Below are positions 533 through 12,473 of a stretch of DNA of 16,203 nt, piece after piece. The stretch comes from an uncultured Armatimonadia bacterium. Its GTDB lineage: Bacteria; Armatimonadota; Zipacnadia; CAZGSV01. Below the pieces are notes generated by a model that saw only the letters and a program-made list of their open reading frames with translations, was not told the DNA's origin and did no database searches. The position numbers were made by a program, and so were the translations under genes. The stretch covers positions 64,331 through 80,533 of the forward strand of contig CAZGSV010000004.1 in assembly GCA_964528605.1 (NCBI GenBank), read 5' to 3'. How positions within the stretch are numbered: position 1 is the first letter of the stretch; every line of letters begins with the position of its first letter.

Positions 533-621
533 CTCCAGGCGCCACGGGGCGCGCGGCCGCCCCCACGACCTGCCGCGCTAGCCCGCTTACCGATGTCCTC
601 GGGGCCACGCGGCCCCTACGC

Positions 622-1455
622 CTATTGCCCTTCCAAGGCAACCGTGAGGTCGGTGATCCGGTCTCCGTCCACCTGCACGATGACGAAATGGTGCCTGATG
701 CCGCCATAGAGGAGTTGCAGGGGCGCGCCCCCCCCGCCGGTGACAATGTAGGTCACGCCGTCTATCACCTGGCGATCGTAGCCGTGCAGGTGGCCGAGGA
801 ACACGCGATCCACCTTGTGCCGCTGCATCAGCGCCATGAACTCGGGCGCGCCCTGGCGGAAGTTGTGCCACCAGCGCATGGTCGCCGGGGGCTCGTGGGC
901 GAAGACGAACTTGCGCCGGTTAGTCTGCAAGCGGCCCTCGAGCCAGCGCAGTTCGCCGGCGCTCAACTCGCCATCGGAGTTGTCCACCACGATGAAACGG
1001 CAGTTGCCGTAGTCGAAACTGTACTGCTCGGGGCCGAAGAGGGCGCGGTAGAACTGCCGACCGCCATTGATCACCTCGTGGTTCCCCAAGGCGGTCAGCA
1101 CCGGCGCCTTAGTGCCCTTGATGACACCAAGGAAGTGATCGTACTCCTGCTCCAGGCCGGAGGAGACGAAGTCGCCGAGGTCAATGATGAACGACGGCCT
1201 GAGGCGGTCCGCCATGCGCAACAGGAACGAGAAGACTTCGTCGTTGTCGCGGGTGTCGCCCATGACGACCAAGGTGATGCTGCCTTGGTAGGGAACGGCG
1301 GCGATGCGGTCGAGGGCTTGCTGGGTCAGGTGGGAGCGCGGCTGGGAGACGCACGGGGGCGAGATTGCCATTCCGGCCAGCAACGCCAGCAGCAAGCCGA
1401 CCCGGAGCAACGCCCAGGCTCCCCGTTTGGTGACCCCACTTCTCATCTGGCTCAT
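622..1455 (-). CDS. Secreted calcineurin-like metallophosphoesterase
   Basis: From track ORF 622..1569, trimmed to the internal Met that begins a signal peptide (MSQMRSGVTKRGAWALLRVGLLLALLAGMA). Metallophosphoesterase motifs are present: GDTRDND, GDFV, GNHE, and GHLHGYDR with GGG. An alternative start is the ATG at 1446 (MRSGV...) if the mRNA is leaderless (see promoter feature). The in-frame codons 1456-1569 are rejected as an N-terminal extension. Confidence 0.8.
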   Translation of the reverse strand: MSQMRSGVTKRGAWALLRVGLLLALLAGMAISPPCVSQPRSHLTQQALDRIAAVPYQGSITLVVMGDTRDNDEVFSFLLRMADRLRPSFIIDLGDFVSSGLEQEYDHFLGVIKGTKAPVLTALGNHEVINGGRQFYRALFGPEQYSFDYGNCRFIVVDNSDGELSAGELRWLEGRLQTNRRKFVFAHEPPATMRWWHNFRQGAPEFMALMQRHKVDRVFLGHLHGYDRQVIDGVTYIVTGGGGAPLQLLYGGIRHHFVIVQVDGDRITDLTVALEGQ

Positions 1456-1483
1456 TATACCAGCGTCCCCTTTGCCGCACCAA
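1454..1483 (-). promoter_or_regulatory. Candidate sigma70-type promoter with extended -10 (TTGGTG-N18-TGgTATAAT) for the metallophosphoesterase, possibly producing a leaderless mRNA
   Basis: On the minus strand the sequence reads TTGGTGcggcaaaggggacgcTGgTATAATgagccagATG. A perfect TATAAT with an upstream TG overlaps the ATG at 1455. The next in-frame ATG (1446) lies 7 nt after the hexamer, which is the expected TSS. No Shine-Dalgarno precedes either ATG. Confidence 0.35.
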
Positions 1484-1542
1484 GCATGGTCGCCGCCCAG
1501 CGAACGCTGTTCGCAGCCATAGCAACGCCGAATATCGGCGAT

Positions 1543-1570
1543 TTTGTTTGTACGCGCGGCCCGGTACAAT
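1543..1570 (+). promoter_or_regulatory. Candidate promoter for the anti-sigma/ECF operon: AT-rich tract plus TACAAT -10
   Basis: aatatcggcgattttgtttgtacg is an unusually AT-rich stretch in 70% GC DNA. It is followed by TACAAT at 1565-1570, which is 18 nt upstream of the ATG at 1588. An AAGGA motif at 1584-1588 abuts that ATG. This is the divergent partner of the minus-strand promoter above. Confidence 0.3.
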
Positions 1571-1587
1571 CGTCCAAGTGATTAAGG

Positions 1588-2058
1588 ATGAGATTGCGCG
1601 CCAAAGACTGCCGTAGGATCCAAGTGCTTCTCCCCGGGCTGCTCACCGGCGAGGTGTCGGGCGCCGAGGCTGCGGCCTCCCGTGCCCACCTCGAGGAATG
1701 CCCTGCCTGCGCGAGCGATTTCGTGGCGCTGGAGCGGGCCGCCTGCGCCCTGCAGGCCTGGCCCGAGGCTAGAGTGAGCGACCTGGAGTCCCTGCGCCTG
1801 GCCGCGCGCCTGCGGGGCCGCCTGGCCCGTAGACGGCGCCTGGAAATCGGCGACTTCGTCTTTATGGCGGCGTGCGTCGCGTTCGTTTTGCTTGCCGCCT
1901 TGGGGTGGTCAGGTTCGGCGAAGAGCCTGCTGCCGCACCTGGGCAGCGGTTGGCCCTACCTGGTAGCGGTGGGCGCGGCGGTGGCCGGCCCGCTCACTGC
2001 CGCGTTGGCCATGCTGCTCCTCATCCATAACCGTGGTAACGGAGGCGTTCCCCAATGA
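1588..2058 (+). CDS. Putative zinc-finger (zf-HC2) anti-sigma factor with two C-terminal TM helices
   Basis: The N-terminus (CRRIQVLLPGLLTGEVSGAEAAASRAHLEECPACASDFVALE) fits the zf-HC2 anti-sigma pattern C...H-x3-C-x2-C. Two hydrophobic helices follow (FVFMAACVAFVLLAALGW and WPYLVAVGAAVAGPLTAALAMLLLI). The stop overlaps the next start as ATGA at 2055-2058. Start is uncertain: SD AAGGA abuts the ATG at 1588, and the TTG at 1594 is an alternative. Confidence 0.65.
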   Translation: MRLRAKDCRRIQVLLPGLLTGEVSGAEAAASRAHLEECPACASDFVALERAACALQAWPEARVSDLESLRLAARLRGRLARRRRLEIGDFVFMAACVAFVLLAALGWSGSAKSLLPHLGSGWPYLVAVGAAVAGPLTAALAMLLLIHNRGNGGVPQ

Positions 2059-3125
2059 ACCGTGAGAGCCTGCGCCGGCGCAAGCGTGTCGTCGGCTGGC
2101 TGTCGGTCCTTTGCTTCCTCCTCGCGATGGCGTGCGTTCCTGTACTCGCGGGGATAGCCGCCATGGAGGCCGCCTACACCCGACACCGCGCCGTTAGATT
2201 CGCACCGCCTGCGGCGAGAGTCGCGCCTGGAAGGGTTGAGTTCGCCGCCCCTCGCGACCAACTCGCCCGCGAACTGGCCGACCTCTTGAGCACGACCGCA
2301 GCCCCGGCACCCGCGGGCTCCTCTGAAGGCGCGGCCCCGGTCCAGCCGGCGGACCCGCAGAAGATACTGCAAGACTGGGTGCTCGAGCACAAAGACCACG
2401 TGCTCTTTGCTCTGGCGATTGACGGCAAGGGTCGCGCGCTGGCCGCTTTCCCCAACGAACAGATGCTCAAGTCGCTGACTTTCGACATCGCCGGGAACGT
2501 GGACGACGGCTGGGAGCCGGCGATGGACCAGATCGAGGAGGCGGGCTTGCCTCATCCCGAAGGCAACAAAGGCACGGCGGATTACATTGACCCGGCGAGC
2601 AAGAGCATCTGCTACGTGCTGCTGCACACCAAGCCTGCCGCCGCTGTCTCCGTGGAAGCCCCGCTGATAGGCGCCGTGCATTCCTATCTGGGGGGGCCTG
2701 AGTGGGACGGCCGGCGTCTCCTCGGCGTGGGTTGGGAGGGCCTCTATATTGGTCTCGCCTGCACGGGCGGTTTCTTTTGGGTGCTGTGCGTCATCTTCGC
2801 CATATGGTGGGTCGCGCTCGACGCCCGCTATCGGGGAATGCGGCGGGGGTGGCTGCTGGCTTTGTTCTGCTTCCTCACAATGCCGGTGGGGCTGCTGATC
2901 TACCTCATCGTGCGGCCCGATGAGCCGGAGCCTTGCCCCTCCTGCGGCCGCCTTGGACCGGCCGGGTTCAGCGTGTGCCCTTGGTGCGGGGCCCGACTGA
3001 GGGGCGTTTGCCCCAAGTGCAAGGCTGCCGTGGAGAAGGGCTGGCGGCTGTGCCCTTACTGTCAGACGCCGCTGGTTGCGCCAACGGCCCAGGCACCGAG
3101 CCCTAAGGAGCAAGCGGCGGAATGA
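2055..3125 (+). CDS. Membrane protein: N-terminal TM, ~200-aa extracytoplasmic domain of unknown family, PLDc_N-like two-helix module, C-terminal cytoplasmic double zinc ribbon
   Basis: ATG at 2055 is preceded by GGAGGCG 7 nt upstream and overlaps the upstream stop as ATGA. The N-terminus is MNRESLRRRKRV plus TM (WLSVLCFLLAMACVPVLAGIAA), followed by a soluble domain. The motif WWVALDARYRGMRRGWLLALFCFLTMPVGLLIYLIVRP has the PLDc_N-like W..DA..RG..W..G..YL..RP spacing. Four CxxC pairs follow (CPSCG, CPWCG, CPKC, CPYC), forming a double zinc ribbon. The stop overlaps the sigma gene start as ATGA at 3122-3125. Confidence 0.75.
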   Translation: MNRESLRRRKRVVGWLSVLCFLLAMACVPVLAGIAAMEAAYTRHRAVRFAPPAARVAPGRVEFAAPRDQLARELADLLSTTAAPAPAGSSEGAAPVQPADPQKILQDWVLEHKDHVLFALAIDGKGRALAAFPNEQMLKSLTFDIAGNVDDGWEPAMDQIEEAGLPHPEGNKGTADYIDPASKSICYVLLHTKPAAAVSVEAPLIGAVHSYLGGPEWDGRRLLGVGWEGLYIGLACTGGFFWVLCVIFAIWWVALDARYRGMRRGWLLALFCFLTMPVGLLIYLIVRPDEPEPCPSCGRLGPAGFSVCPWCGARLRGVCPKCKAAVEKGWRLCPYCQTPLVAPTAQAPSPKEQAAE

Positions 3126-3745
3126 GTCCCCTGCTAGTGCCTCAGGCGCTGTCCGCGGTCTGGCCGCTCCCGGCGAGAGCCCGGGTCAGTTGGACCGCCG
3201 CGAACTACTGTCTCGACACCGACGAGGACCTGCTGGACCGCTTCCTGCGCGGGGAGCCGGGAGGCCTCGACGCGCTGGTGCAACGCCATCATCAGCCGCT
3301 GCTCAACCTCTGCTGGCGGATGGTGGGCGACCGCGAGGCGGCCGAGGACCTGGTGCAGGAGACCTTCTGGCGCGTGCTCACCAAGGCCGATCGCTTCCGT
3401 AAGCAGGCGAGCGTCCGCACCTGGCTCTACGCCATCGCGATCAATGCTTGCCGCGATCATATCCGCAGCCGGTCGCGGCGCAGGCGCCACGTCGGCGCGC
3501 TGGAGCAGCAGGGCCTCGACGGGGCCAGCGACGAGCACGGGCAATGGGCTGCCGCGCAGACCGCGCGGGTGAGCGCCGCCCTGGCTGGCGTTGATGCGGA
3601 CACGCGCGCGGTGCTGGTGCTCCATTTCTACCGCGGCCTCTCCTATCGCGAGATCGGCCAGGTGATGCGCTGGTCGGCCTCGAGAGTAGCGCAGAGAATC
3701 CGGCGCGGACTCGAACGGCTGCACATGGTGCTTAAGGAGGCGTAG
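3122..3745 (+). CDS. ECF-type RNA polymerase sigma-70 factor
   Basis: Region 2 reads DEDLLDRFLRGEPGGLDALVQRHHQPLLNLCWRMVGDREAAEDLVQETFWRVLTKADRFRKQASVRTWLYAIAINACRDHIRSR. Region 4 reads LVLHFYRGLSYREIGQVMRWSASRVAQRIRRGLERL. The ATG at 3122 forms ATGA with the upstream stop. The ~35-aa N-terminal extension before region 2 means an internal alternative start (for example GTG at 3137) cannot be excluded. Confidence 0.85.
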   Translation: MSPLLVPQALSAVWPLPARARVSWTAANYCLDTDEDLLDRFLRGEPGGLDALVQRHHQPLLNLCWRMVGDREAAEDLVQETFWRVLTKADRFRKQASVRTWLYAIAINACRDHIRSRSRRRRHVGALEQQGLDGASDEHGQWAAAQTARVSAALAGVDADTRAVLVLHFYRGLSYREIGQVMRWSASRVAQRIRRGLERLHMVLKEA

Positions 3746-3750
3746 CGCTG

Positions 3751-4317
3751 GTGAGCGTTGACGATCCCATAGATGCGCTGATAGACCGCACCCGTTCCCG
3801 CAAGGGCATGATCGGTTGGGCGGCTGCCCTGTGCCTGGGCGCGGGGCTGTTGGGCACGGCTTTCCGCGAACTTGCGCCGCTGTTCTTCACCTGCTACTGG
3901 CTGCTGCTGGCTCTGTGGGTCTATCTCGACGCCACGCAGCGCGGCAGCACGAAGGCTTGGGCGTTCGGCATTCTCACGCTGATAGCCAACATATTCGGCC
4001 TGGCCGTGTATCTGGTGGCCAGGCCGGAGGGACCTACCGACTGCCCGTCCTGCGGCGCGCCCATGAAGCCCGAGTACCGTGTGTGCCCCGTATGCGGAGC
4101 GGCCCGGCGACCGCGTTGCCCCAAATGCGGCCAGATGCTCGACGAAGCCTGGTCCTTCTGCCCACATTGCGGCGAACGGCCCGCCAAGGCCGAGCCACAG
4201 CCGACGGCAGCCGCGGCGCCTCCCGTGCCCGCGCAGCCAGCCGAGCCCGTGGCCGCGGCGGAGCAGAGCATACCTGAGGAGTCAGGTGCCGCCGAACAAG
4301 GGCGGCCCGCCGAGTAG
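3751..4317 (+). CDS. PLDc_N-like two-helix membrane module fused to a cytoplasmic double zinc ribbon; paralog of the C-terminus of 2055..3125
   Basis: GTG start at 3751 has a strong SD (TAAGGAGG at 3734-3741, 10-nt spacing). The motif LWVYLDATQRGSTKAWAFGILTLIANIFGLAVYLVARPEGPTDCPSCG...VCPVCG...CPKCG...CPHCG aligns residue-for-residue with IWWVALDARYRGMRRGWLL...GLLIYLIVRPDEPEPCPSCG...VCPWCG...CPKC...CPYC. The tail is Pro/Ala-rich. Confidence 0.75.
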   Translation: MSVDDPIDALIDRTRSRKGMIGWAAALCLGAGLLGTAFRELAPLFFTCYWLLLALWVYLDATQRGSTKAWAFGILTLIANIFGLAVYLVARPEGPTDCPSCGAPMKPEYRVCPVCGAARRPRCPKCGQMLDEAWSFCPHCGERPAKAEPQPTAAAAPPVPAQPAEPVAAAEQSIPEESGAAEQGRPAE

Positions 4318-4354
4318 CCCCCCCGCGCGAGCACTGGGCCTGCGGCCCGCAAGC

Positions 4355-4816
4355 CTACCGTTCGGCGTGCCGGCTTGCACGCGCCTTGCGGAAGGCATAG
4401 AGATAGCAGTCGTTTGAGCCCGCGTAGAGCGTCCCGTCCGCAGCAATGGCGGGCGAAGAGTCAACGACCGCCTGCGTCTGGTAGCGCCACTCGAGACGAC
4501 CGTCCGAAGCCACCGCGTACACCGCCCCATCCCACGAACCGAAGTACACCGTGCCGTCGGGGCCGATGGCGGGAGAGGAGCGAACCGGCCCGCTGGCCCG
4601 AGACTTCCACCTCAAGAGCGCGTCTTGAGGGCCCGCATAGGGGCTCGCGCCGGTGTGAGATAGGTTGAGCCGGAACATGGGCCAGGGGCTCTCGGCCAGT
4701 TGCGCTTGCGCTCTCTGTGGAACGATGGTTGCTGCCAGAAGCAGGGCGGCGGCCGCGACGACGAGGCGGGTGGTCCAGGGAGGGAGACGGCAGTCCAACT
4801 TCGCTCGGCCTTTCAT
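4355..4816 (-). CDS. Small secreted PQQ-repeat (beta-propeller blade) protein, possibly truncated
   Basis: From track ORF 4355..4960, trimmed to the Met that begins a signal peptide (MKGRAKLDCRLPPWTTRLVVAAAALLLAATIVPQRAQAQ). Three PQQ-like repeats follow (SSPAIGPDGTVYFGSWDGAVYAV, SSPAIAADGTLYAGSNDCYLYAF). It is convergent with 3751..4317. Three blades are too few for a closed propeller. Confidence 0.55.
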   Translation of the reverse strand: MKGRAKLDCRLPPWTTRLVVAAAALLLAATIVPQRAQAQLAESPWPMFRLNLSHTGASPYAGPQDALLRWKSRASGPVRSSPAIGPDGTVYFGSWDGAVYAVASDGRLEWRYQTQAVVDSSPAIAADGTLYAGSNDCYLYAFRKARASRHAER

Positions 4817-6447: not shown

Positions 6448-7467
6448 ATGGCCGCTTCGTACCCGTTCGTGCGCGCCGGCGGCGGGCCGCGAGAGATGGG
6501 CAGGCAGATCGGCGAGCAAGTGCGCGCGCACATCCCCCCCATCCTCGAGGAACTCAAGGTGCCGGCCAACTACGGCAGCCTAAGCCACCAGCGGCGCGCG
6601 CAGCAGGTGCTAGCCAACATGGAGCGCGACGCGCCGCACCTGGTCGAGGAAATGCGCGGCATCGCCGAGGGCAGCGGCATTCCCTTCGACACCATTCTGG
6701 TCTACAACGCGATCGCGGAGATGTGGTACGTGCGCGAGTGCACCGCGATCGGCTTTGCGGACACGCCCGAGGGCGTGGTCATCGGCAAGACCAACGACAT
6801 CGGCGAGAACAAGGCCCACTACCATATCCCGCACCTGCTCGCGCCCGACGGAGGCGAGCGGCTGCTGGTCTTCACTTGGCCGGGCACGGTGTGGGTGAAC
6901 GCCGGGGTGAACGAATCGGGCGTCGGCATCGGCAGCGCGAGCATATCCTCCGCCGAGTTCGAGTCTGCGGGCATCATCTCCAACTGCGTCTACCGCCTGG
7001 TGCTCGAGCGCGCGCGCGACTTCGAACAGGGCCTGGAGGCCCTGCGCGAGGTGCGCTACATGTGCCATCCGTTCAACGTCGTCCTGGGCGACGCGGCCGG
7101 CGGGTTGGCGGCCGTGGAGCGCCCGGTCACCAAGATGGCGGTGCGCCGGCCCGAGAACGGGGCGGTCTTCGTGACCAACCACTGGGAGGAGCCGGAGACG
7201 GCCGCGCTGTGCAGCATCTCCGACCAACTGCGCGGGAACAGCAAACGCCGGTTCGAGAACCTGCGGCGGCTGGTGCGCACCGTGCCTCACACCGTCGAGG
7301 GGATGATCTCGGTGGTGCGCGACCACAATCCCTCCGGCGGCATCTGCCAGCACGGCGACGCGAACATGCACTCGTCCGCCGGATACGTGGTGGTGCCCTC
7401 GCAGAGGCGGGTGTGGTTTGCTTACGGGCGGCCGTGCGAGGTGGAGTTCGAGCCGTACGACCTTTGA
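6448..7467 (+). CDS. Cytoplasmic peptidase-C45 / acyl-CoA:6-APA acyltransferase-like Ntn hydrolase
   Basis: It starts 4 nt after the aminotransferase stop. No signal peptide is present. A candidate nucleophile Cys is in VRECTAIGF. The protein is co-linear with the two secreted paralogs downstream (EMRGIAEGSGIPFDTI vs EMCGLAEASGVPLETI; WPGTVWVNAGVNESGVGIG vs NLWVGVNWAGFLGTTACF). Confidence 0.7.
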   Translation: MAASYPFVRAGGGPREMGRQIGEQVRAHIPPILEELKVPANYGSLSHQRRAQQVLANMERDAPHLVEEMRGIAEGSGIPFDTILVYNAIAEMWYVRECTAIGFADTPEGVVIGKTNDIGENKAHYHIPHLLAPDGGERLLVFTWPGTVWVNAGVNESGVGIGSASISSAEFESAGIISNCVYRLVLERARDFEQGLEALREVRYMCHPFNVVLGDAAGGLAAVERPVTKMAVRRPENGAVFVTNHWEEPETAALCSISDQLRGNSKRRFENLRRLVRTVPHTVEGMISVVRDHNPSGGICQHGDANMHSSAGYVVVPSQRRVWFAYGRPCEVEFEPYDL

Positions 7468-7516
7468 GGGGCCCTGGTGTACGCAAAGTGCGTATGGCAA
7501 TACGCCCGTACGGAGC

Positions 7517-7537
7517 GGGCCTGATAAGATCAGGCCC
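7517..7537 (+). terminator. Perfect 9-bp-stem hairpin GGGCCTGAT-aag-ATCAGGCCC (no U-tract)
   Basis: An exact inverted repeat 50 nt after the stop of 6448..7467. A second hairpin, TACGCA-aag-TGCGTA, lies at 7480-7494 with the same AAG triloop. No T-tract follows, so the call is a factor-independent GC-type terminator or a structured RNA element. Confidence 0.35.
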
Positions 7538-7634
7538 CTACGACCGCGTCAGCGCGGGCGCGCATTCTTGTATCCTTTTGCGGTTCCGCTTCGTCATCAC
7601 TAGCGGCGGGAGCGCAGCCGTGACTCTTCACCCT

Positions 7635-7901
7635 ATGGACCGCGACAAGGAACTACTCGCGCGATTCGCTCGCGGCGAGGACTCGGCCTTTGACGTGCTC
7701 TTCGACCGGCACGCGCGGCGCGTCTTTGACTACCTGACGCGTGTGATGGGTGACGCGGAGGTGGCGGCCGCCGAGCAAGTAGGCATGTGCACCATGGAGC
7801 AGTCGTTGGCTCGCCTGGTCCGCCAGGGCCTGGTGGACGCGGAAGAAGCAAGAAGAGTCGCCCCTGATCCCCCCAAGTTAGAGCGCTACCTCACTCGGTA
7901 G
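7635..7901 (+). pseudogene. 88-codon chimeric ORF: ECF sigma-70 region-2 N-terminus fused in frame to a PilT/PilU-type ATPase C-terminus (gene remnants)
   Basis: MDRDKELLARFARGEDSAFDVLFDRHARRVFDYLTRVMGDAEVA matches the start of ECF sigma region 2 (compare DEDLLDRFLRGE...MVGDREAAEDLVQ in 3122..3745). The rest, GMCTMEQSLARLVRQGLVDAEEARRVAPDPPKLERYLTR, matches the conserved PilT C-terminal tail (GMQT-DQSL..L...G.I..EEA.R.A.DP..L.R). No SD precedes it. It forms the last 88 codons of overlapping track ORF 6723..7901, which is in a different frame from the C45 gene. Confidence 0.45.
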
Positions 7902-7912
7902 CCCCAGCGCGC

Positions 7913-7941
7913 TTACGCGCAGTCCCCTCTTGTCCTATAAT
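7913..7941 (+). promoter_or_regulatory. Candidate promoter for the GH36 gene with perfect TATAAT -10
   Basis: TATAAT at 7936-7941, 47 nt upstream of the ATG at 7989. A weak -35 (TTACGC) lies 17 nt upstream. SD GAGGTG is at 7976-7981. Confidence 0.35.
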
Positions 7942-7988
7942 CCCTTCGCCGCAGTCCGCCCGCAGACGCGGAGCGGCGAGGTGATGCG

Positions 7989-9956
7989 ATGGAGTTCCCC
8001 AAGGAGTCTCAGTGCTCGGCCCAGGAGGCCCTGGCTTGCTGCCTGGCGCAAGGCGGTTACGGCTTGCGGCCGGCCGAAGCCGTAGCCCCGGCTCACCCGC
8101 TGTTGCCGCCGGCGCTCGTTCCGTGGGCAGTTGACCTGGACGGAGAGGAGACAGCGCCCGGGGACTGGAATGCGGAGCCCCTGGCGTCGCACGCCGCTGC
8201 CGGAGGCCGGTGCCTCGAGCGGCGATTCCGGCACACGCCGTCGGGGCTGGTTGTGGTGAGCCGCGCCATCCTGTTCGACCACCTGCCCGCGGTTGAGTTC
8301 CGCCTCACAATCGAGAATCCGGGGCATTCGGCCTCTGCCTTGATAACTAGGGCTCGAAGCCTGGCACTGGGCACGCCGAAAGTGAAAACGCGGCCGTTGC
8401 TCACCTCGTGCGCCGGCGGCCTGACGGGCACGACCTACCCTGACCGCGGTTTTCGCCTCGACCGCACGCCTCTCTCCTCCGAGGCGCACTTGCTCTCCGC
8501 AGCCGGCGGTCGGTCGTCCAACCGGGACCTGCCTTTCGTTCTGCTGGCTCTGCCTGATGCCGGCTTGTTCTTCGGCGTCGGCTGGTCGGGCCAGTGGCAG
8601 GCGCAACTGCGCTGGCACGAGAACGAAGAGGAACTACGGGTGGACATTGAGTTGCCGGGGTTGCGGCTCCGTATTCCAGCGGGAGAATCCATCACGCTGC
8701 CGAGCATTCTCCTCGGGACGTACCTCGGGCCGGCGGAGGTGGGCAGCAATCTGCTGCGCCGCACGCTCTACGAGCGTTATGTGCCCCTGCTCGAGGGCGC
8801 CCAGCCGCTGCCGCCGACCTCTTTCAACCACTGGTTCTCAATGGACAACGACATCTCGGAGGAGAACCTGCGCGCGCAAGCCGAGGTCGCGGCACGCATC
8901 GGCCTGGAGTACTTCTGCGTTGACTCGGGCTGGTTCGTCGGCGCCTTCCCTGAGGGCGTGGGCAACTGGATTCTCGACCGCGCAAAGTTCCCCAACGGGC
9001 TGAAGCCGCTCGCCGACTACGCGCGGGCCAAGGGCATGCGCTTCGGCCTGTGGTTCGAGCCGGAGCGCGTCGCCGACGGCACGCGACTCGAACGCGAGCA
9101 TCCCGAGTGGGTCAACGACAACCTCCTTGACCTGGGCAATCCCGACGCGCGCAACTGGGTGGCGGAGATGATGGACTCGCTGATCAACGAGGCCGGCATC
9201 CAGTGGATACGCTTTGACTTCAACATTGACCCGCTGCCCGTTTGGGAGAAGATCGAGGGCGAGGAGGAGCGGGGCCTGCGGCAGATTCGGCACCTCGGGG
9301 GACTGTACCAATTGCTGGACCATCTGCTGCAGGCGCATCCCTCGCTCCTCATTGAGGGCTGCGCGAGCGGCGGCCGGCGCATTGATCTGGAGACGGTTCG
9401 CCGGTGTCACACCTTCTGGAAGAGCGATGAGACCTGGGATTTGCCGACGCTGCGGACGCACATCACCGGCGGCAACGTGTTCCTGCCCTCCGTCGCGCTC
9501 AACGTCAACCTACTGCACCCCGGTCCCACGTTTGCCTTTCGCAGCCTCTTCGGAGGCCCGCTGGGCATAGGCGCGCGGCTCTCCGACTGGTCCGAGGAGG
9601 TGGTTCAACTAGCGCGGCGCGAGGTCGCGCTCTACAAGTCGCTGCGCCCTCACCTGCTCGGCGACTACTACCCGCTCTTCGAACAACCGCGCGACACGCA
9701 AGTCTGGGAGGGCTGGCAGTTCCACGACCCGGAGGAGCAGGCGGGGTTCGCCGTTGTGCTCCGTCTGGAGGACTCGCCTTACGAGTGCGCCCGCGTGCGG
9801 TTGCGCGGGCTTGCTCCGGGGGCGACCTACCTGCTGACCGACGTTGACTCCGGACAGGAATCGAGTCTGACGGGCGCGGAGTTGATGGAGGGGCTGCCCG
9901 TGGCGCTGCCGCAGCCGGCGTTGTGCAGACTCATCACCTATCGGGCTCGTCCGTGA
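7989..9956 (+). CDS. Glycoside hydrolase family 36 alpha-galactosidase (melibiase-type), cytoplasmic
   Basis: The N-terminal GH36 beta-sandwich has DLPFVLLALPDAGLFFGVGWSGQWQ. The catalytic TIM-barrel motifs are CVDSGWF, FGLWFEPE, WIRFDFN (nucleophile context) and GCASGGRRID (acid/base context). No signal peptide is present. Confidence 0.85.
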   Translation: MEFPKESQCSAQEALACCLAQGGYGLRPAEAVAPAHPLLPPALVPWAVDLDGEETAPGDWNAEPLASHAAAGGRCLERRFRHTPSGLVVVSRAILFDHLPAVEFRLTIENPGHSASALITRARSLALGTPKVKTRPLLTSCAGGLTGTTYPDRGFRLDRTPLSSEAHLLSAAGGRSSNRDLPFVLLALPDAGLFFGVGWSGQWQAQLRWHENEEELRVDIELPGLRLRIPAGESITLPSILLGTYLGPAEVGSNLLRRTLYERYVPLLEGAQPLPPTSFNHWFSMDNDISEENLRAQAEVAARIGLEYFCVDSGWFVGAFPEGVGNWILDRAKFPNGLKPLADYARAKGMRFGLWFEPERVADGTRLEREHPEWVNDNLLDLGNPDARNWVAEMMDSLINEAGIQWIRFDFNIDPLPVWEKIEGEEERGLRQIRHLGGLYQLLDHLLQAHPSLLIEGCASGGRRIDLETVRRCHTFWKSDETWDLPTLRTHITGGNVFLPSVALNVNLLHPGPTFAFRSLFGGPLGIGARLSDWSEEVVQLARREVALYKSLRPHLLGDYYPLFEQPRDTQVWEGWQFHDPEEQAGFAVVLRLEDSPYECARVRLRGLAPGATYLLTDVDSGQESSLTGAELMEGLPVALPQPALCRLITYRARP

Positions 9957-10120
9957 CGAGCAGCAGTCCGGCAAGCAGAGGCCCAGACAGCAGACTCCTG
10001 GCCCCAGGCCTCACCGCGATGCGCATGCCCAGGATATGACCCAGCGCCCGCAGGCTGGGGAAGCGATGCAGGAGAGGAAGCGGCTCATGGGGTCGGCCCG
10101 ATGCCTTCGCGGCGCTGCGG

Positions 10121-10140
10121 TATAATGGTGGTCAGGAGGA
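10121..10140 (+). promoter_or_regulatory. Perfect TATAAT -10 (10121-10126) and strong SD AGGAGGA (10134-10140) upstream of the first secreted C45 hydrolase
   Basis: ggTATAATggtggtcAGGAGGAgtatggaATG. The predicted 5' UTR is very short (~15 nt). No convincing -35 is present. Confidence 0.4.
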
Positions 10141-10147
10141 GTATGGA

Positions 10148-11254
10148 ATGGAACGACTCGCGCTTCTGGTGGCAGTGGCGCTTCCGCTCGCCTTCGCGTG
10201 TGGCTTTGCTGAGGTAGGGCCGGCCAAGACTGCGGTGATCGGCGAAGGAGCGGACGCGATCACCGTGGTCTATCTCGATCAGCCGAGCGCCTACGAGCGC
10301 GGCCTCGCCTACGGTAAGGCAATGGCAGGTCCTATCGCCGCGACCATGAGCCAGTTCCTGCAGAGCCTCCAGTGGACGCCGGAGCAGATGGACCAGGTCT
10401 ACGCCAAGCAGGAGCCTTTCATCCCGCAGGACATCAAAGACGAGATGTGCGGGCTCGCGGAGGCGTCCGGAGTTCCACTGGAGACCATTCGACGCGTGCA
10501 CGCGGTCCCGGAACTCTTCGAGTCGCAATGCTCCAACGTTGTGGCCTGGGGCGCCGCCACCGAGGGGGGCAGGCTGTATGCCCTGCGCGTGCTCGACTGG
10601 TTGCTGACCACAGGAGCGCAAGAGCATCCGGTGGTACTTGTGGAGCGTCCCGAGCGCGGCAACCTGTGGGTGGGAGTGAACTGGGCCGGCTTCTTGGGCA
10701 CCACTGCCTGCTTCAATGAGAAGCAGTTCACCTCGGGCGAGATGTCCGCGGGCAAGTTCTACCCGGAGCGGCTTGAGGGCACCCCGCACAACTTCCTGAT
10801 GCCTGAGGTGTTGCGGCAGTCAGATACGCTGCAGGAGGCGCTGGACAACTTCCGCAATGCCAGCCGCACGGCGGCCCTCTTCTATGCGGTCGGCGATGCC
10901 AAGATTCCTGAGGGGCGGCTGCTGCTGACGGGGGCGGACCAGTTCACGGAGATTCGCGCCAACGACCCCACCTACGCCTTGCTCGGCCTGCCCGGAATAG
11001 CAGATGTGGTGTACGGGAGCCTCAAGAACGAGGTGTGTGCCGCGATGCTTCAGGAGCACTACGGCGCCATCAACCCGGAGGTCTGCAAGGAGATTGGCCG
11101 GGCGGTGGCCTCCGATGACAGCGCGCTGCACATCGTCGTCTTTGACCCGGGCAACCTGAAGATGTGGGTGGCCAACGCCGAGGGGGCTGAGTCCGCACAG
11201 CACCGCCCGTTCGTGGAGTTCGACCTGCGGCAAGCCCTCCAGGCCATGCAGTAG
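10148..11254 (+). CDS. Secreted peptidase-C45 / acyltransferase-like Ntn hydrolase, paralog A
   Basis: Signal peptide MERLALLVAVALPLAFA|CGFAEV with an AxA cleavage site. The candidate nucleophile is in FESQCSNVVAWGAATEGGRLYALRVLDW. Length is 368 aa. Confidence 0.75.
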   Translation: MERLALLVAVALPLAFACGFAEVGPAKTAVIGEGADAITVVYLDQPSAYERGLAYGKAMAGPIAATMSQFLQSLQWTPEQMDQVYAKQEPFIPQDIKDEMCGLAEASGVPLETIRRVHAVPELFESQCSNVVAWGAATEGGRLYALRVLDWLLTTGAQEHPVVLVERPERGNLWVGVNWAGFLGTTACFNEKQFTSGEMSAGKFYPERLEGTPHNFLMPEVLRQSDTLQEALDNFRNASRTAALFYAVGDAKIPEGRLLLTGADQFTEIRANDPTYALLGLPGIADVVYGSLKNEVCAAMLQEHYGAINPEVCKEIGRAVASDDSALHIVVFDPGNLKMWVANAEGAESAQHRPFVEFDLRQALQAMQ

Positions 11255-11266
11255 GCGGGGGCGGGA

Positions 11267-11332: not shown

Positions 11333-11366
11333 ATAGGGCGTGAGGTTGGGGATAGGAGGACGCTCA

Positions 11367-12473
11367 GTGACGCGCTTTGTACTGTGCTTGGTAACACTGG
11401 TGCTGTTGACCCCCACTTACGCCCCCGCGGAAGTCGCACCGGCGCGTACCGCTGTCATCGGTGACGGTGCGGACGCGATCACCGTCGTCTATCTGGACCA
11501 GCCCACTGCCTACGAACGCGGCTTTGCCTATGGCAAGGCGCTGGCCAGCCAGATGGCGGTGATGGTTCCTCGTTTCCTGCAGTCCTTTGAGTGGACACCG
11601 GAGCGCATGGACGAAGTCTATGCGATGCAGGAGCCGTTCATATCTGACGACATCAAGGAAGAGATGCGCGGTCTGGCCGACGGCTCGGGCTTGCCGCTCG
11701 AGGCGATTCACCGGGCGCACATCGTGCCCGAGTTGGCCGAGTTCCACTGCTCCAACTTCGCGGCCTGGGGATCGGCAACGGAGGACGGCCGGCTGTATGC
11801 CATTCGCGTGCTCGACTGGGAGATGAACTCGGGCTGTCAGGATTACCCGGTCATCGTCGTGAGCCGTCCCGAGTCGGGCAACCTTTGGGTCGGCGTGAAT
11901 TGGGCGGGCTTCGTGGGCGCGGTGTCGGGCTTCAACGAAAAGGGCATCTCGGTGGGCGAGATGACGGCGGGCACCACGTTTCCCGAACGCCTCGAGGGCG
12001 AACCGATGCCGTTCGTCTTCCGCGAGGTGCTGCGGTATTCGAGTACGCTGGGGGAGGCGGTGGAGAACTTCCGCAACGCCACCCGCACCTCGTGTTTCTT
12101 CTTTGCGGTGGGCGACGCCAAGATTCCTGCGGGCGAGATACTGCTGACGGGCTACGACCAGTTCCTGGAGATCAACGGCGGCGACCCCAAGTACGCGCTG
12201 TTCGGATTGCCTGCCATTCAGGACGTGGTGTACGGCAGCTACAAGAACCAACTGTGCGCCCAGATGCTACAGGAGAATCACGGCGCGATAAACGTTGACA
12301 TCGCCAAGCGGATCGCTCGGGCGGTCGCCTCCGATGACAGCGCGCTGCACATGGTGGTGTTCGATCCGGGCAACCTCAAGATCTGGGTGGCCAATGCGGA
12401 GGGCAAGGAGCCCTCGCAGAAGCGGCCGTTCGTCGAGTTCGACTTGCAGCAGTTCTTGGAGGCGGTGAAATGA
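11367..12473 (+). CDS. Secreted peptidase-C45 / acyltransferase-like Ntn hydrolase, paralog B
   Basis: The start is set at the in-frame GTG at 11367, which lies 6 nt after SD AGGAGGA. It gives the signal peptide MTRFVLCLVTLVLLTPTYAPAEV. The track ATG at 11340 lies upstream of the SD. The protein is co-linear with paralog A (AVIGDGADAITVVYLDQPTAYERG vs AVIGEGADAITVVYLDQPSAYERG; CSNFAAWGSATEDGRLYAIRVLDW). Confidence 0.75.
   Translation: MTRFVLCLVTLVLLTPTYAPAEVAPARTAVIGDGADAITVVYLDQPTAYERGFAYGKALASQMAVMVPRFLQSFEWTPERMDEVYAMQEPFISDDIKEEMRGLADGSGLPLEAIHRAHIVPELAEFHCSNFAAWGSATEDGRLYAIRVLDWEMNSGCQDYPVIVVSRPESGNLWVGVNWAGFVGAVSGFNEKGISVGEMTAGTTFPERLEGEPMPFVFREVLRYSSTLGEAVENFRNATRTSCFFFAVGDAKIPAGEILLTGYDQFLEINGGDPKYALFGLPAIQDVVYGSYKNQLCAQMLQENHGAINVDIAKRIARAVASDDSALHMVVFDPGNLKIWVANAEGKEPSQKRPFVEFDLQQFLEAVK

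What the first reader, a model, noticed from the sequence alone, without database searches (positions are those of the whole stretch)
7635..7901. Chimeric 88-codon ORF joining an ECF sigma N-terminus to a PilT-type ATPase C-terminus is a rearrangement scar
The first ~48 residues are a sigma-70 region-2 start (ELLARFARGEDSAFDVLFDRHARRVFDYLTRVMGDAEVA). The last ~38 residues are the conserved extreme C-terminus of PilT/PilU-type retraction ATPases (GMCTMEQSLARLVRQGLVDAEEARRVAPDPPKLERYLTR). The junction lies around 7770-7780. Neither half can fold alone, and there is no SD. It lies inside an atypically AT-richer 520-bp spacer between the C45 hydrolase and the GH36 gene. This indicates a past deletion or recombination that removed most of a sigma gene and most of a pilT gene. 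It may also be the boundary of an inserted block. Alternatively it is an assembly chimera.
Basis: partly seen in the sequence, partly recalled or inferred. Interest (0 to 1): 0.6.

Follow-up and report, generated by a model that had tools for sequence, protein, structure and literature searches.

The report
Sigma–pilT deletion scar (fusion pseudogene)
The small ORF is what remains after a deletion of about 1.75 kb removed most of a three-gene cluster (ECF sigma factor, anti-sigma factor, PilT pilus-retraction ATPase) and joined the sigma start in frame to the PilT end; this is ordinary gene decay, not an assembly error.

Summary
ORF 7635-7901 exists. Its ancestral start is more likely GTG 7620, which gives 93 codons and has a GGGAG Shine-Dalgarno 7 nt upstream.

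- **Two origins:** residues 3-44 match ECF sigma profiles at positions 8-49 (E 3e-9). Residues 44-79 match the last 36 positions of the PilT/PilU profile (E 6e-4).
- **Intact comparator:** among 1.84 billion representative proteins, the best sigma hit (P0002) and the best PilT hit (P0003) are neighbours on one contig, L083. It carries sigma, a 121-aa ORF and pilT on one strand.
- **Collinear DNA:** window 7571-7768 aligns to the L083 sigma leader and 5' end. Window 7782-7870 aligns to the pilT 3' end. About 1757 bp are missing, and the junction lies at 7769-7781.
- **Not an assembly chimera:** the same join sits between the same C45 and GH36 genes in 13 contigs from 13 samples or runs. There are three haplotypes and no indel or stop.
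- **Relaxed constraint:** polymorphism density is 1.9 times that of the flanking genes. dN/dS is inconclusive.

Nothing supports an inserted block, and the spacer is not AT-rich. This is a routine pseudogene remnant and the interest is low.

The parts
6448..7467 (+). Upstream flanking gene: C45/AAT-family (isopenicillin-N N-acyltransferase-like) protein, 339 aa. It is not part of the scar.
   Evidence: Pfam PF03417 AAT, E 1.5e-14. Same neighbour in all conspecific contigs.
7517..7562 (+). Two GC-rich hairpins after the C45 stop: GGGCCTGAT-AAG-ATCAGGCCC at 7517-7537 and CGCGTC..GCGCG at 7545-7562. They are probably the terminator of the upstream operon (inferred).
   Evidence: Sequence read directly. 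The second hairpin was reported by the terminator scan.
7571..7619 (+). Retained 5' leader of the lost sigma gene. It contains the 13-nt block TCGTCATCACTAG, identical in the relative, and a GGGAG Shine-Dalgarno at 7608-7612.
   Evidence: It lies within the alignment of window 7571-7768 to L083 8139-8335 (72-73% identity), in the part upstream of the L083 sigma start at 8187.
7620..7768 (+). Remnant of the ECF sigma gene: the ancestral GTG start plus about 50 codons (N-terminal helix and the first third of region 2).
   Evidence: NCBIfam ECF sigma hits at profile positions 6-49. 30 of 50 residues are identical to P0002 residues 1-50, with the same start register. DNA alignment.
7769..7781 (+). 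Deletion junction. These 13 nt (CGCCGAGCAAGTA) cannot be assigned to either parent.
   Evidence: Sigma homology ends at 7768 and pilT homology starts at 7782. The L083 breakpoint regions were read.
7782..7901 (+). Remnant of pilT: the last 39 codons plus the original TAG stop.
   Evidence: TIGR01420 pilT_fam positions 306-341 of 343. 75% nt identity to L083 10093-10181. 24 of 38 residues are identical to the L083 PilT tail.
7902..7988 (+). 87 bp that are invariant among the three haplotypes, upstream of GH36. They hold TTACGC-N17-TATAAT (7913-7941) and the SD GAGGTGA (7978-7984). This is probably the GH36 promoter and leader (inferred).
   Evidence: 0 of 87 sites vary, against 3-6% elsewhere. 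Sequence read directly. The consensus promoter scan did not report this site, because its -35 hexamer matches only 3 of 6.
7989..9956 (+). Downstream flanking gene: GH36 alpha-galactosidase, 655 aa. It is not part of the scar.
   Evidence: Pfam PF02065 Melibiase, E 2.5e-43. JGI names it alpha-galactosidase.

Best explanation
The ORF is a non-functional fusion pseudogene left by one deletion.

An ancestor of this species carried a same-strand cluster of three genes: an ECF sigma factor, a small ORF in the anti-sigma position (121 aa in the relative), and the pilus-retraction ATPase PilT. A deletion of roughly 1.75 kb ran from about codon 50 of the sigma gene to about codon -39 of pilT. It removed sigma regions 2.2-4, the whole middle gene, and the entire ATPase core of PilT.

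The join happened to be in frame. The sigma leader, Shine-Dalgarno and GTG start now read through 50 sigma codons and 39 PilT codons to the original pilT stop.

Shown here: the homology of both halves, the collinearity with an intact cluster, the reality of the junction, and its fixation in one species-level population.

Inferred: a single event, the loss of function of the product, and the cluster having once stood at this exact spot.
For: 1. **Profile matches.** They sit at the correct termini: sigma positions 8-49 at the N-end and pilT_fam positions 306-341 of 343 at the C-end.
2. **Best hits are neighbours.** In an exhaustive search of 1.84e9 representatives, the best sigma hit P0002 and the best PilT hit P0003 are 1.2 kb apart on one contig, on the same strand.
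3. **DNA collinearity.** Window 7571-7768 matches L083 8139-8335 (72-73%), starting 48 nt upstream of the sigma start. Window 7782-7870 matches L083 10093-10181 (75%).
4. **The L083 genes are whole.** The sigma has r2 and r4 domains. pilT covers profile positions 2-216 and 221-342 around a 10-N gap. L175, a JGI contig 99.9% identical to L083, repeats the gene order as far as it reaches and ends inside pilT.
5. **Same junction and neighbours elsewhere.** It is present in 13 contigs from JGI, ENA and Logan, which are 97.7-100% identical to the window.
6. **Coding-like composition.** GC by codon position is 0.74/0.43/0.78.
7. **Relaxed constraint.** Variable-site density is 5.7%, against 3.0% in both flanking genes (Fisher p 0.03). 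The sigma half has 6 nonsynonymous and 3 synonymous changes, including A41P.
8. **Restricted distribution.** No other protein spans both halves, apart from this species' own cluster at >=90% identity.
Against: - The only intact comparator is distant (about 60% amino-acid and 72-75% nucleotide identity in the shared pieces). It has different left-flank genes (hisD and a 121-aa ORF). So the breakpoint cannot be placed to the base, and the ancestral location cannot be shown.
- No intermediate relatives exist in the searched collections.
- Neutrality is not demonstrated. The ORF is intact in all three haplotypes, with start and SD conserved. Changes are 8 nonsynonymous to 8 synonymous (binomial p 0.027 against a naive 3:1). 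The PilT-derived half shows 2 to 5.
- These counts are small. A 16-substitution neutral walk keeps the frame open with probability about 0.6.
Confidence: 0.88

Rival explanations
1. The in-frame fusion has become a functional small protein. It would be expressed from the retained sigma leader and start, with the PilT-derived helical tail under purifying selection.
For: - The ORF, the GTG start and the GGGAG SD are intact in all three haplotypes.
- Nonsynonymous to synonymous changes are 8:8 overall and 2:5 in the PilT half, below the naive 3:1.
- AlphaFold2 predicts an all-helical chain, with pLDDT 85-88 over the last ~30 residues.
Against: - Variable-site density is 1.9 times that of the flanking genes.
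- The sigma half has dN/dS of 0.65-2.0 with radical replacements.
- Both parent domains are truncated far below their folding units.
- The overall model is weak (pLDDT 71, pTM 0.45).
- The ORF is confined to one species-level cluster.
- An open frame after 16 random changes has probability about 0.6.
- Third-position GC-to-AT mutational bias in a 66% GC genome inflates apparent synonymous change (inference).
Confidence: 0.08
2. The join is an assembly chimera between an unrelated sigma gene and an unrelated pilT gene.
For: None was found. It was only an a priori possibility for a metagenome-derived contig.
Against: - Logan contigs from ERR3804376, ERR3804378 and ERR4334730-2 are 100% identical across the junction.
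- JGI 3300035688 and 3300035179, ENA ERZ27247683 and ERZ27247709, and Logan SRR11721626, SRR11722086 and SRR9617926 carry the same junction in two further haplotypes.
Confidence: 0.01
3. The scar marks the boundary of an inserted or mobile block, or it arose from several events or from recombination between distant sigma and pilT loci, not from one local deletion.
For: - The left flank in L083 (hisD) differs from the window's left flank (C45).
- Among 80 more distant sigma relatives, none has pilT downstream, so the adjacency is not widely conserved.
Against: - One relative has the two parents adjacent and co-oriented, so one deletion suffices.
- There are no direct or inverted repeats, IS remnants or tRNA at the site.
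- There is no compositional step.
- All conspecific strains share identical gene order on both sides.
Confidence: 0.03

Closest known systems
Deletion-derived fusion pseudogenes / gene remnants in bacterial genomes (own knowledge: a deletion spanning neighbouring co-oriented genes can leave a chimeric ORF made of the first gene's 5' end and the last gene's 3' end)
   Same: - The 5' end of one gene is joined to the 3' end of a downstream co-oriented gene.
- The genes in between are lost.
- The original start and stop are retained.
- Constraint is relaxed.
- Distribution is restricted to one lineage.
   Different: Nothing essential differs. The join is in frame, so gene callers report it as a protein. 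JGI names it 'specialized sigma24 family protein'.
Group IV (ECF) sigma-70 factors, such as the in-window sigma at 3122-3745 and P0002
   Same: The N-terminal 50 residues are homologous: 60% identity to P0002 and 41% to the in-window sigma.
   Different: It lacks most of region 2 and all of region 4. There is no Pfam Sigma70_r2 or r4 hit. By inference it cannot act as a sigma factor.
PilT/PilU type IVa pilus retraction ATPases (TIGR01420)
   Same: The last ~38 residues are homologous, about 63% identical to the PilT of L083.
   Different: It lacks the N-terminal domain, the Walker A and B motifs and the rest of the ATPase core. Profile positions 1-305 are absent.

Membership tests
ECF sigma-70 factor | Complete sigma region 2 (Pfam Sigma70_r2, 71 positions) | tested here: not met
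   No Pfam hit at E <= 10. In P0002 the r2 domain spans residues 27-93. Only about the first 24 of those positions are retained here.
ECF sigma-70 factor | Sigma region 4 (-35 recognition helix-turn-helix) | tested here: not met
   Absent. The C-terminal half matches PilT instead.
ECF sigma-70 factor | Sequence homology of the N-terminal segment to ECF sigmas | tested here: met
   16 NCBIfam sigma models hit, best E 3.1e-9, all far below their family cut-offs. P0002 has E 1.9e-8 against 1.84e9 proteins.
PilT/PilU ATPase | T2SSE ATPase core with Walker A and Walker B motifs | tested here: not met
   No T2SSE hit. Only profile positions 306-341 of 343 of TIGR01420 are present, scoring 19 bits against a cut-off of 319.
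PilT/PilU ATPase | Homology of the extreme C-terminus | tested here: met
   TIGR01420 E 5.7e-4. P0003 has E 3.7e-8. 75% nt identity to the L083 pilT 3' end.
Deletion-derived fusion pseudogene | Collinear alignment to intact, adjacent, co-oriented parent genes in a relative, with the intervening DNA missing | tested here: met
   L083 and L175.
Deletion-derived fusion pseudogene | Relaxed selective constraint compared with neighbouring genes | tested here: inconclusive
   Variable-site density is 5.7% against 3.0% (p 0.03), which favours relaxation. However, dN/dS of 0.27-0.66 is similar to the flanks at ~0.3, with only 16 changes.
Deletion-derived fusion pseudogene | No expression, or no function of the product | not testable with these tools
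   This needs transcript or peptide data from the source samples.
Assembly chimera | The junction is present in only one assembly | tested here: not met
   13 contigs from 13 samples or runs, in at least three source collections (JGI, ENA, Logan), carry the identical junction.

The most novel reading that the evidence does not exclude
The accidental in-frame sigma'-'pilT fusion has been kept as a new 93-residue protein. It would still be translated from the sigma gene's own start signals, and its PilT-derived helical tail would be under selection. One speculative role is binding a partner of the PilT C-terminus. That would make it a dated example of gene birth by deletion.
Probability: 0.07. 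Interest if true: 0.5.

Novelty: new member of a known kind. Interest (0 to 1): 0.15.

Why it matters
The main value is for annotation. The ORF is currently called as a protein, and one source names it a sigma-24 family protein, but it should be flagged as a pseudogene remnant. It also records that this species-level lineage lost one ECF sigma/anti-sigma pair and one pilT copy. That loss may bear on twitching motility or pilus retraction if no other pilT remains. The case also shows that exhaustive half-by-half homology searching can recover the ancestral gene order for a scar even when no close relative has been sequenced.

Tried and rejected
- **Pfam on the ORF and on each half.** No significant hit, because the domain models do not cover these termini. 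NCBIfam full-length models did hit.
- **Word-indexed protein search with the ORF.** Only the ORF itself was found.
- **Genome-contig scan with the C45 neighbour.** Only relatives at 25-29% identity, mostly Anaerolineae, so no syntenic genomes.
- **Metagenome-contig scan with sigma P0002.** Only relatives at <=42% identity, none with pilT downstream.
- **GH36 homologue search.** There is a gap from 97% (conspecific) straight down to 53% identity, so the ancestral locus cannot be tested.
- **Rfam scan of 7200-8300.** Nothing credible.
- **Repeat search.** No flanking repeats.
- **Consensus promoter scan.** No sites.
- **Microhomology at the breakpoints.** The parents are too diverged to judge.
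- **Literature search for the sample accessions.** No papers.
- **Look-up of the source NCBI contig through the SPFH protein.** Not on record.
- **AlphaFold2 without an alignment.** Weak model, not informative about function.

Full report
**Observation**

It lies in the 521-bp spacer between a C45/AAT-family gene (6448-7467) and a GH36 melibiase gene (7989-9956).

Pfam finds nothing significant in the ORF or in either half. The full-length NCBIfam models do. Residues 3-44 match 15 ECF sigma models at profile positions ~8-49 (best E 3.1e-9). Residues 44-79 match TIGR01420 (PilT/PilU) at positions 306-341 of 343 (E 5.7e-4). The N-terminal piece therefore sits at the N-terminus of its family and the C-terminal piece at the C-terminus of its family. 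A start-to-stop fusion would give exactly this arrangement.

GC by codon position (0.74/0.43/0.78) is coding-like in this frame.

**Corrections to the observation**

The spacer is 64.9% GC against 66.4% for the window, so it is not notably AT-rich. It is, however, the longest spacer in the window.

'No SD' is true only for ATG 7635. GTG 7620 has GGGAG at 7608-7612, seven bases upstream. Some gene callers use that start, which gives the 93-aa protein P0001.

**What it is**

An exhaustive phmmer search of 1.84 billion representative proteins returned 21 hits at E <= 1e-3. Apart from the ORF's own cluster, the two best were these:
- P0002, a 185-aa ECF sigma (E 1.9e-8, matching query residues 2-46).
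- P0003, a 93-aa C-terminal piece of a PilT (E 3.7e-8).

Both are encoded on the same 10.4-kb contig, L083 (NCBI GCA_964584635.1). They lie on the same strand in this order: sigma 8187-8744, a 121-aa ORF 8741-9106, then pilT 9146-10212.

The 121-aa ORF overlaps the sigma stop and contains paired cysteines. Its position suggests an anti-sigma factor, but it has no Pfam hit.

The L083 sigma has both r2 and r4 domains. The L083 pilT matches TIGR01420 over positions 2-216 and 221-342 on either side of a 10-N scaffold gap. L175, a JGI contig from another sample (3300010324) that is 99.9% identical to L083, repeats the order hisD, 121-aa ORF (minus strand), sigma, 121-aa ORF, pilT. It ends inside pilT.

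At DNA level the alignment is collinear:
- Window 7571-7768 aligns to L083 8139-8335 (72-73% identity). The alignment starts 48 nt upstream of the sigma start codon and includes a 13-nt identical block, TCGTCATCACTAG.
- Window 7782-7870 aligns to L083 10093-10181 (75% identity).

The window's GTG 7620 is in register with the L083 sigma start. 30 of the first 50 residues are identical. 24 of 38 residues of the PilT tail are identical.

The window therefore corresponds to the L083 cluster minus L083 8336-10092, about 1757 bp. The junction falls within window 7769-7781. The comparator is too diverged to place the breakpoint to the base or to judge microhomology.

**Is the junction real?**

Yes. 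The ORF's >=90% identity cluster has six members. Contigs carrying them come from the following sources:
- Logan assemblies of ERR3804376, ERR3804378, ERR4334730, ERR4334731 and ERR4334732, all 100% identical to the window.
- JGI samples 3300035688 (a 155-kb contig) and 3300035179.
- ENA samples ERZ27247683 and ERZ27247709.
- Logan assemblies of SRR11721626, SRR11722086 and SRR9617926.

All of these have the gene order C45, ORF, GH36, and all are 97.7-100% identical to the window. Three haplotypes of the spacer exist. None has an indel or a stop in the ORF. An assembly chimera is excluded.

**Is the ORF under selection?**

Across the three haplotypes, the 93-codon ORF has 16 variable sites (5.7%). 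The comparison figures are 3.0% in the sequenced parts of C45 and of GH36 (Fisher p 0.03), 3.9% in the upstream non-coding spacer, and 0% in the 87 bp upstream of GH36. This points to relaxed constraint.

The split is 8 nonsynonymous to 8 synonymous changes. The sigma half has 6:3, including K5D, D20A, D32G, A41P and E42Q. The PilT half has 2:5. Pairwise dN/dS is 0.27-0.66, against about 0.3 for the flanking genes.

The counts are too small to separate neutrality from weak constraint. Third-position GC-to-AT bias would also inflate synonymous change (inference). Sixteen random substitutions would leave the frame open with probability about 0.6, so an intact ORF is not evidence of function.

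AlphaFold2 without an alignment gives an all-helical chain with pLDDT 71 and pTM 0.45. That is uninformative.

**Mechanism**

One deletion in a sigma/anti-sigma/pilT cluster joined sigma codon ~50 to pilT codon ~-39 in frame. It kept the sigma leader, SD and start, and the pilT stop.

The product lacks sigma regions 2.2-4 and the whole PilT ATPase core. By inference it can do the job of neither parent.

If the lost sigma drove its own promoter, as many ECF sigmas do (general knowledge), the remnant may also be poorly transcribed.

**Limits**

No relative of intermediate distance exists in the searched collections:
- C45 homologues are <=29% identical.
- GH36 homologues drop from 97% to 53% identity.
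- Sigma relatives of P0002 in metagenome contigs are <=42% identical, and none has pilT downstream.

The left flank in L083 is hisD, not C45. So I cannot show that the cluster once stood exactly between C45 and GH36. The adjacency of sigma and pilT is specific to that lineage. Nothing at the site suggests a mobile-element boundary.

**Verdict**

This is ordinary gene decay, a fusion pseudogene, and mainly of value for annotation. The only non-trivial reading left open is that the fusion is a young functional micro-protein. I give that about 7%.

Noticed in passing
window 9958-11255 (gene 10148-11254): A 368-aa gene with no Pfam hit is a 68%-identical tandem paralogue of the next gene (11340-12473, weak AAT/C45 match). 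This 1.3-kb segment is present in the window and in L085. In the other conspecific contigs (L086, L087, L090-L093) 161 bp stand in its place. It is a strain-variable tandem duplication or gene loss.
   Followed up: partly
L084 24-281 (protein P0017, ENA ERZ27247952, 515-bp contig): This is another small ORF (85 aa) with a PilT-like C-terminal tail. Residues 39-77 match pilT_fam positions 305-343 (E 0.0036), and it is 45% identical to the window ORF over 53 residues. The tail is joined to a truncated Phd/YefM antitoxin N-terminus (phd_fam E 2e-6). The PilT-like part starts at the same profile position as in the window ORF. It could be coincidence, a second scar, or a Phd C-terminus that merely resembles PilT.
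   Followed up: partly
window 7902-7988: The 87 bp between the scar's stop and the GH36 start are invariant in all three haplotypes, while surrounding sequence varies at 3-6%. The stretch contains TTACGC-N17-TATAAT (7913-7941) and the SD GAGGTGA (7978-7984). It is probably the GH36 promoter and leader.
   Followed up: no
window 611-4582: The left part of the window holds a zf-HC2 anti-sigma-like gene, double-zinc-ribbon genes and an ECF sigma at 3122-3745. It is only ~94% identical to the conspecific contigs, with 27-28 gaps, against 97.7-98.7% for the rest of the window. This block diverges faster or has undergone recombination.
   Followed up: no
L083 9806-9815 and the end of L175: The comparator pilT has a 10-N scaffold gap. 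The independent JGI contig L175 ends at exactly the base before that gap. This suggests a site inside pilT that is hard to assemble or variable in that population.
   Followed up: no
window 7494-7901 and 6723-7901: Gene callers disagree on the start of the scar ORF, giving 88, 93 or 135 aa. A 392-codon open frame runs from 6723 through the C45 gene in another frame. These are high-GC open-frame artefacts, not longer genes.
   Followed up: yes
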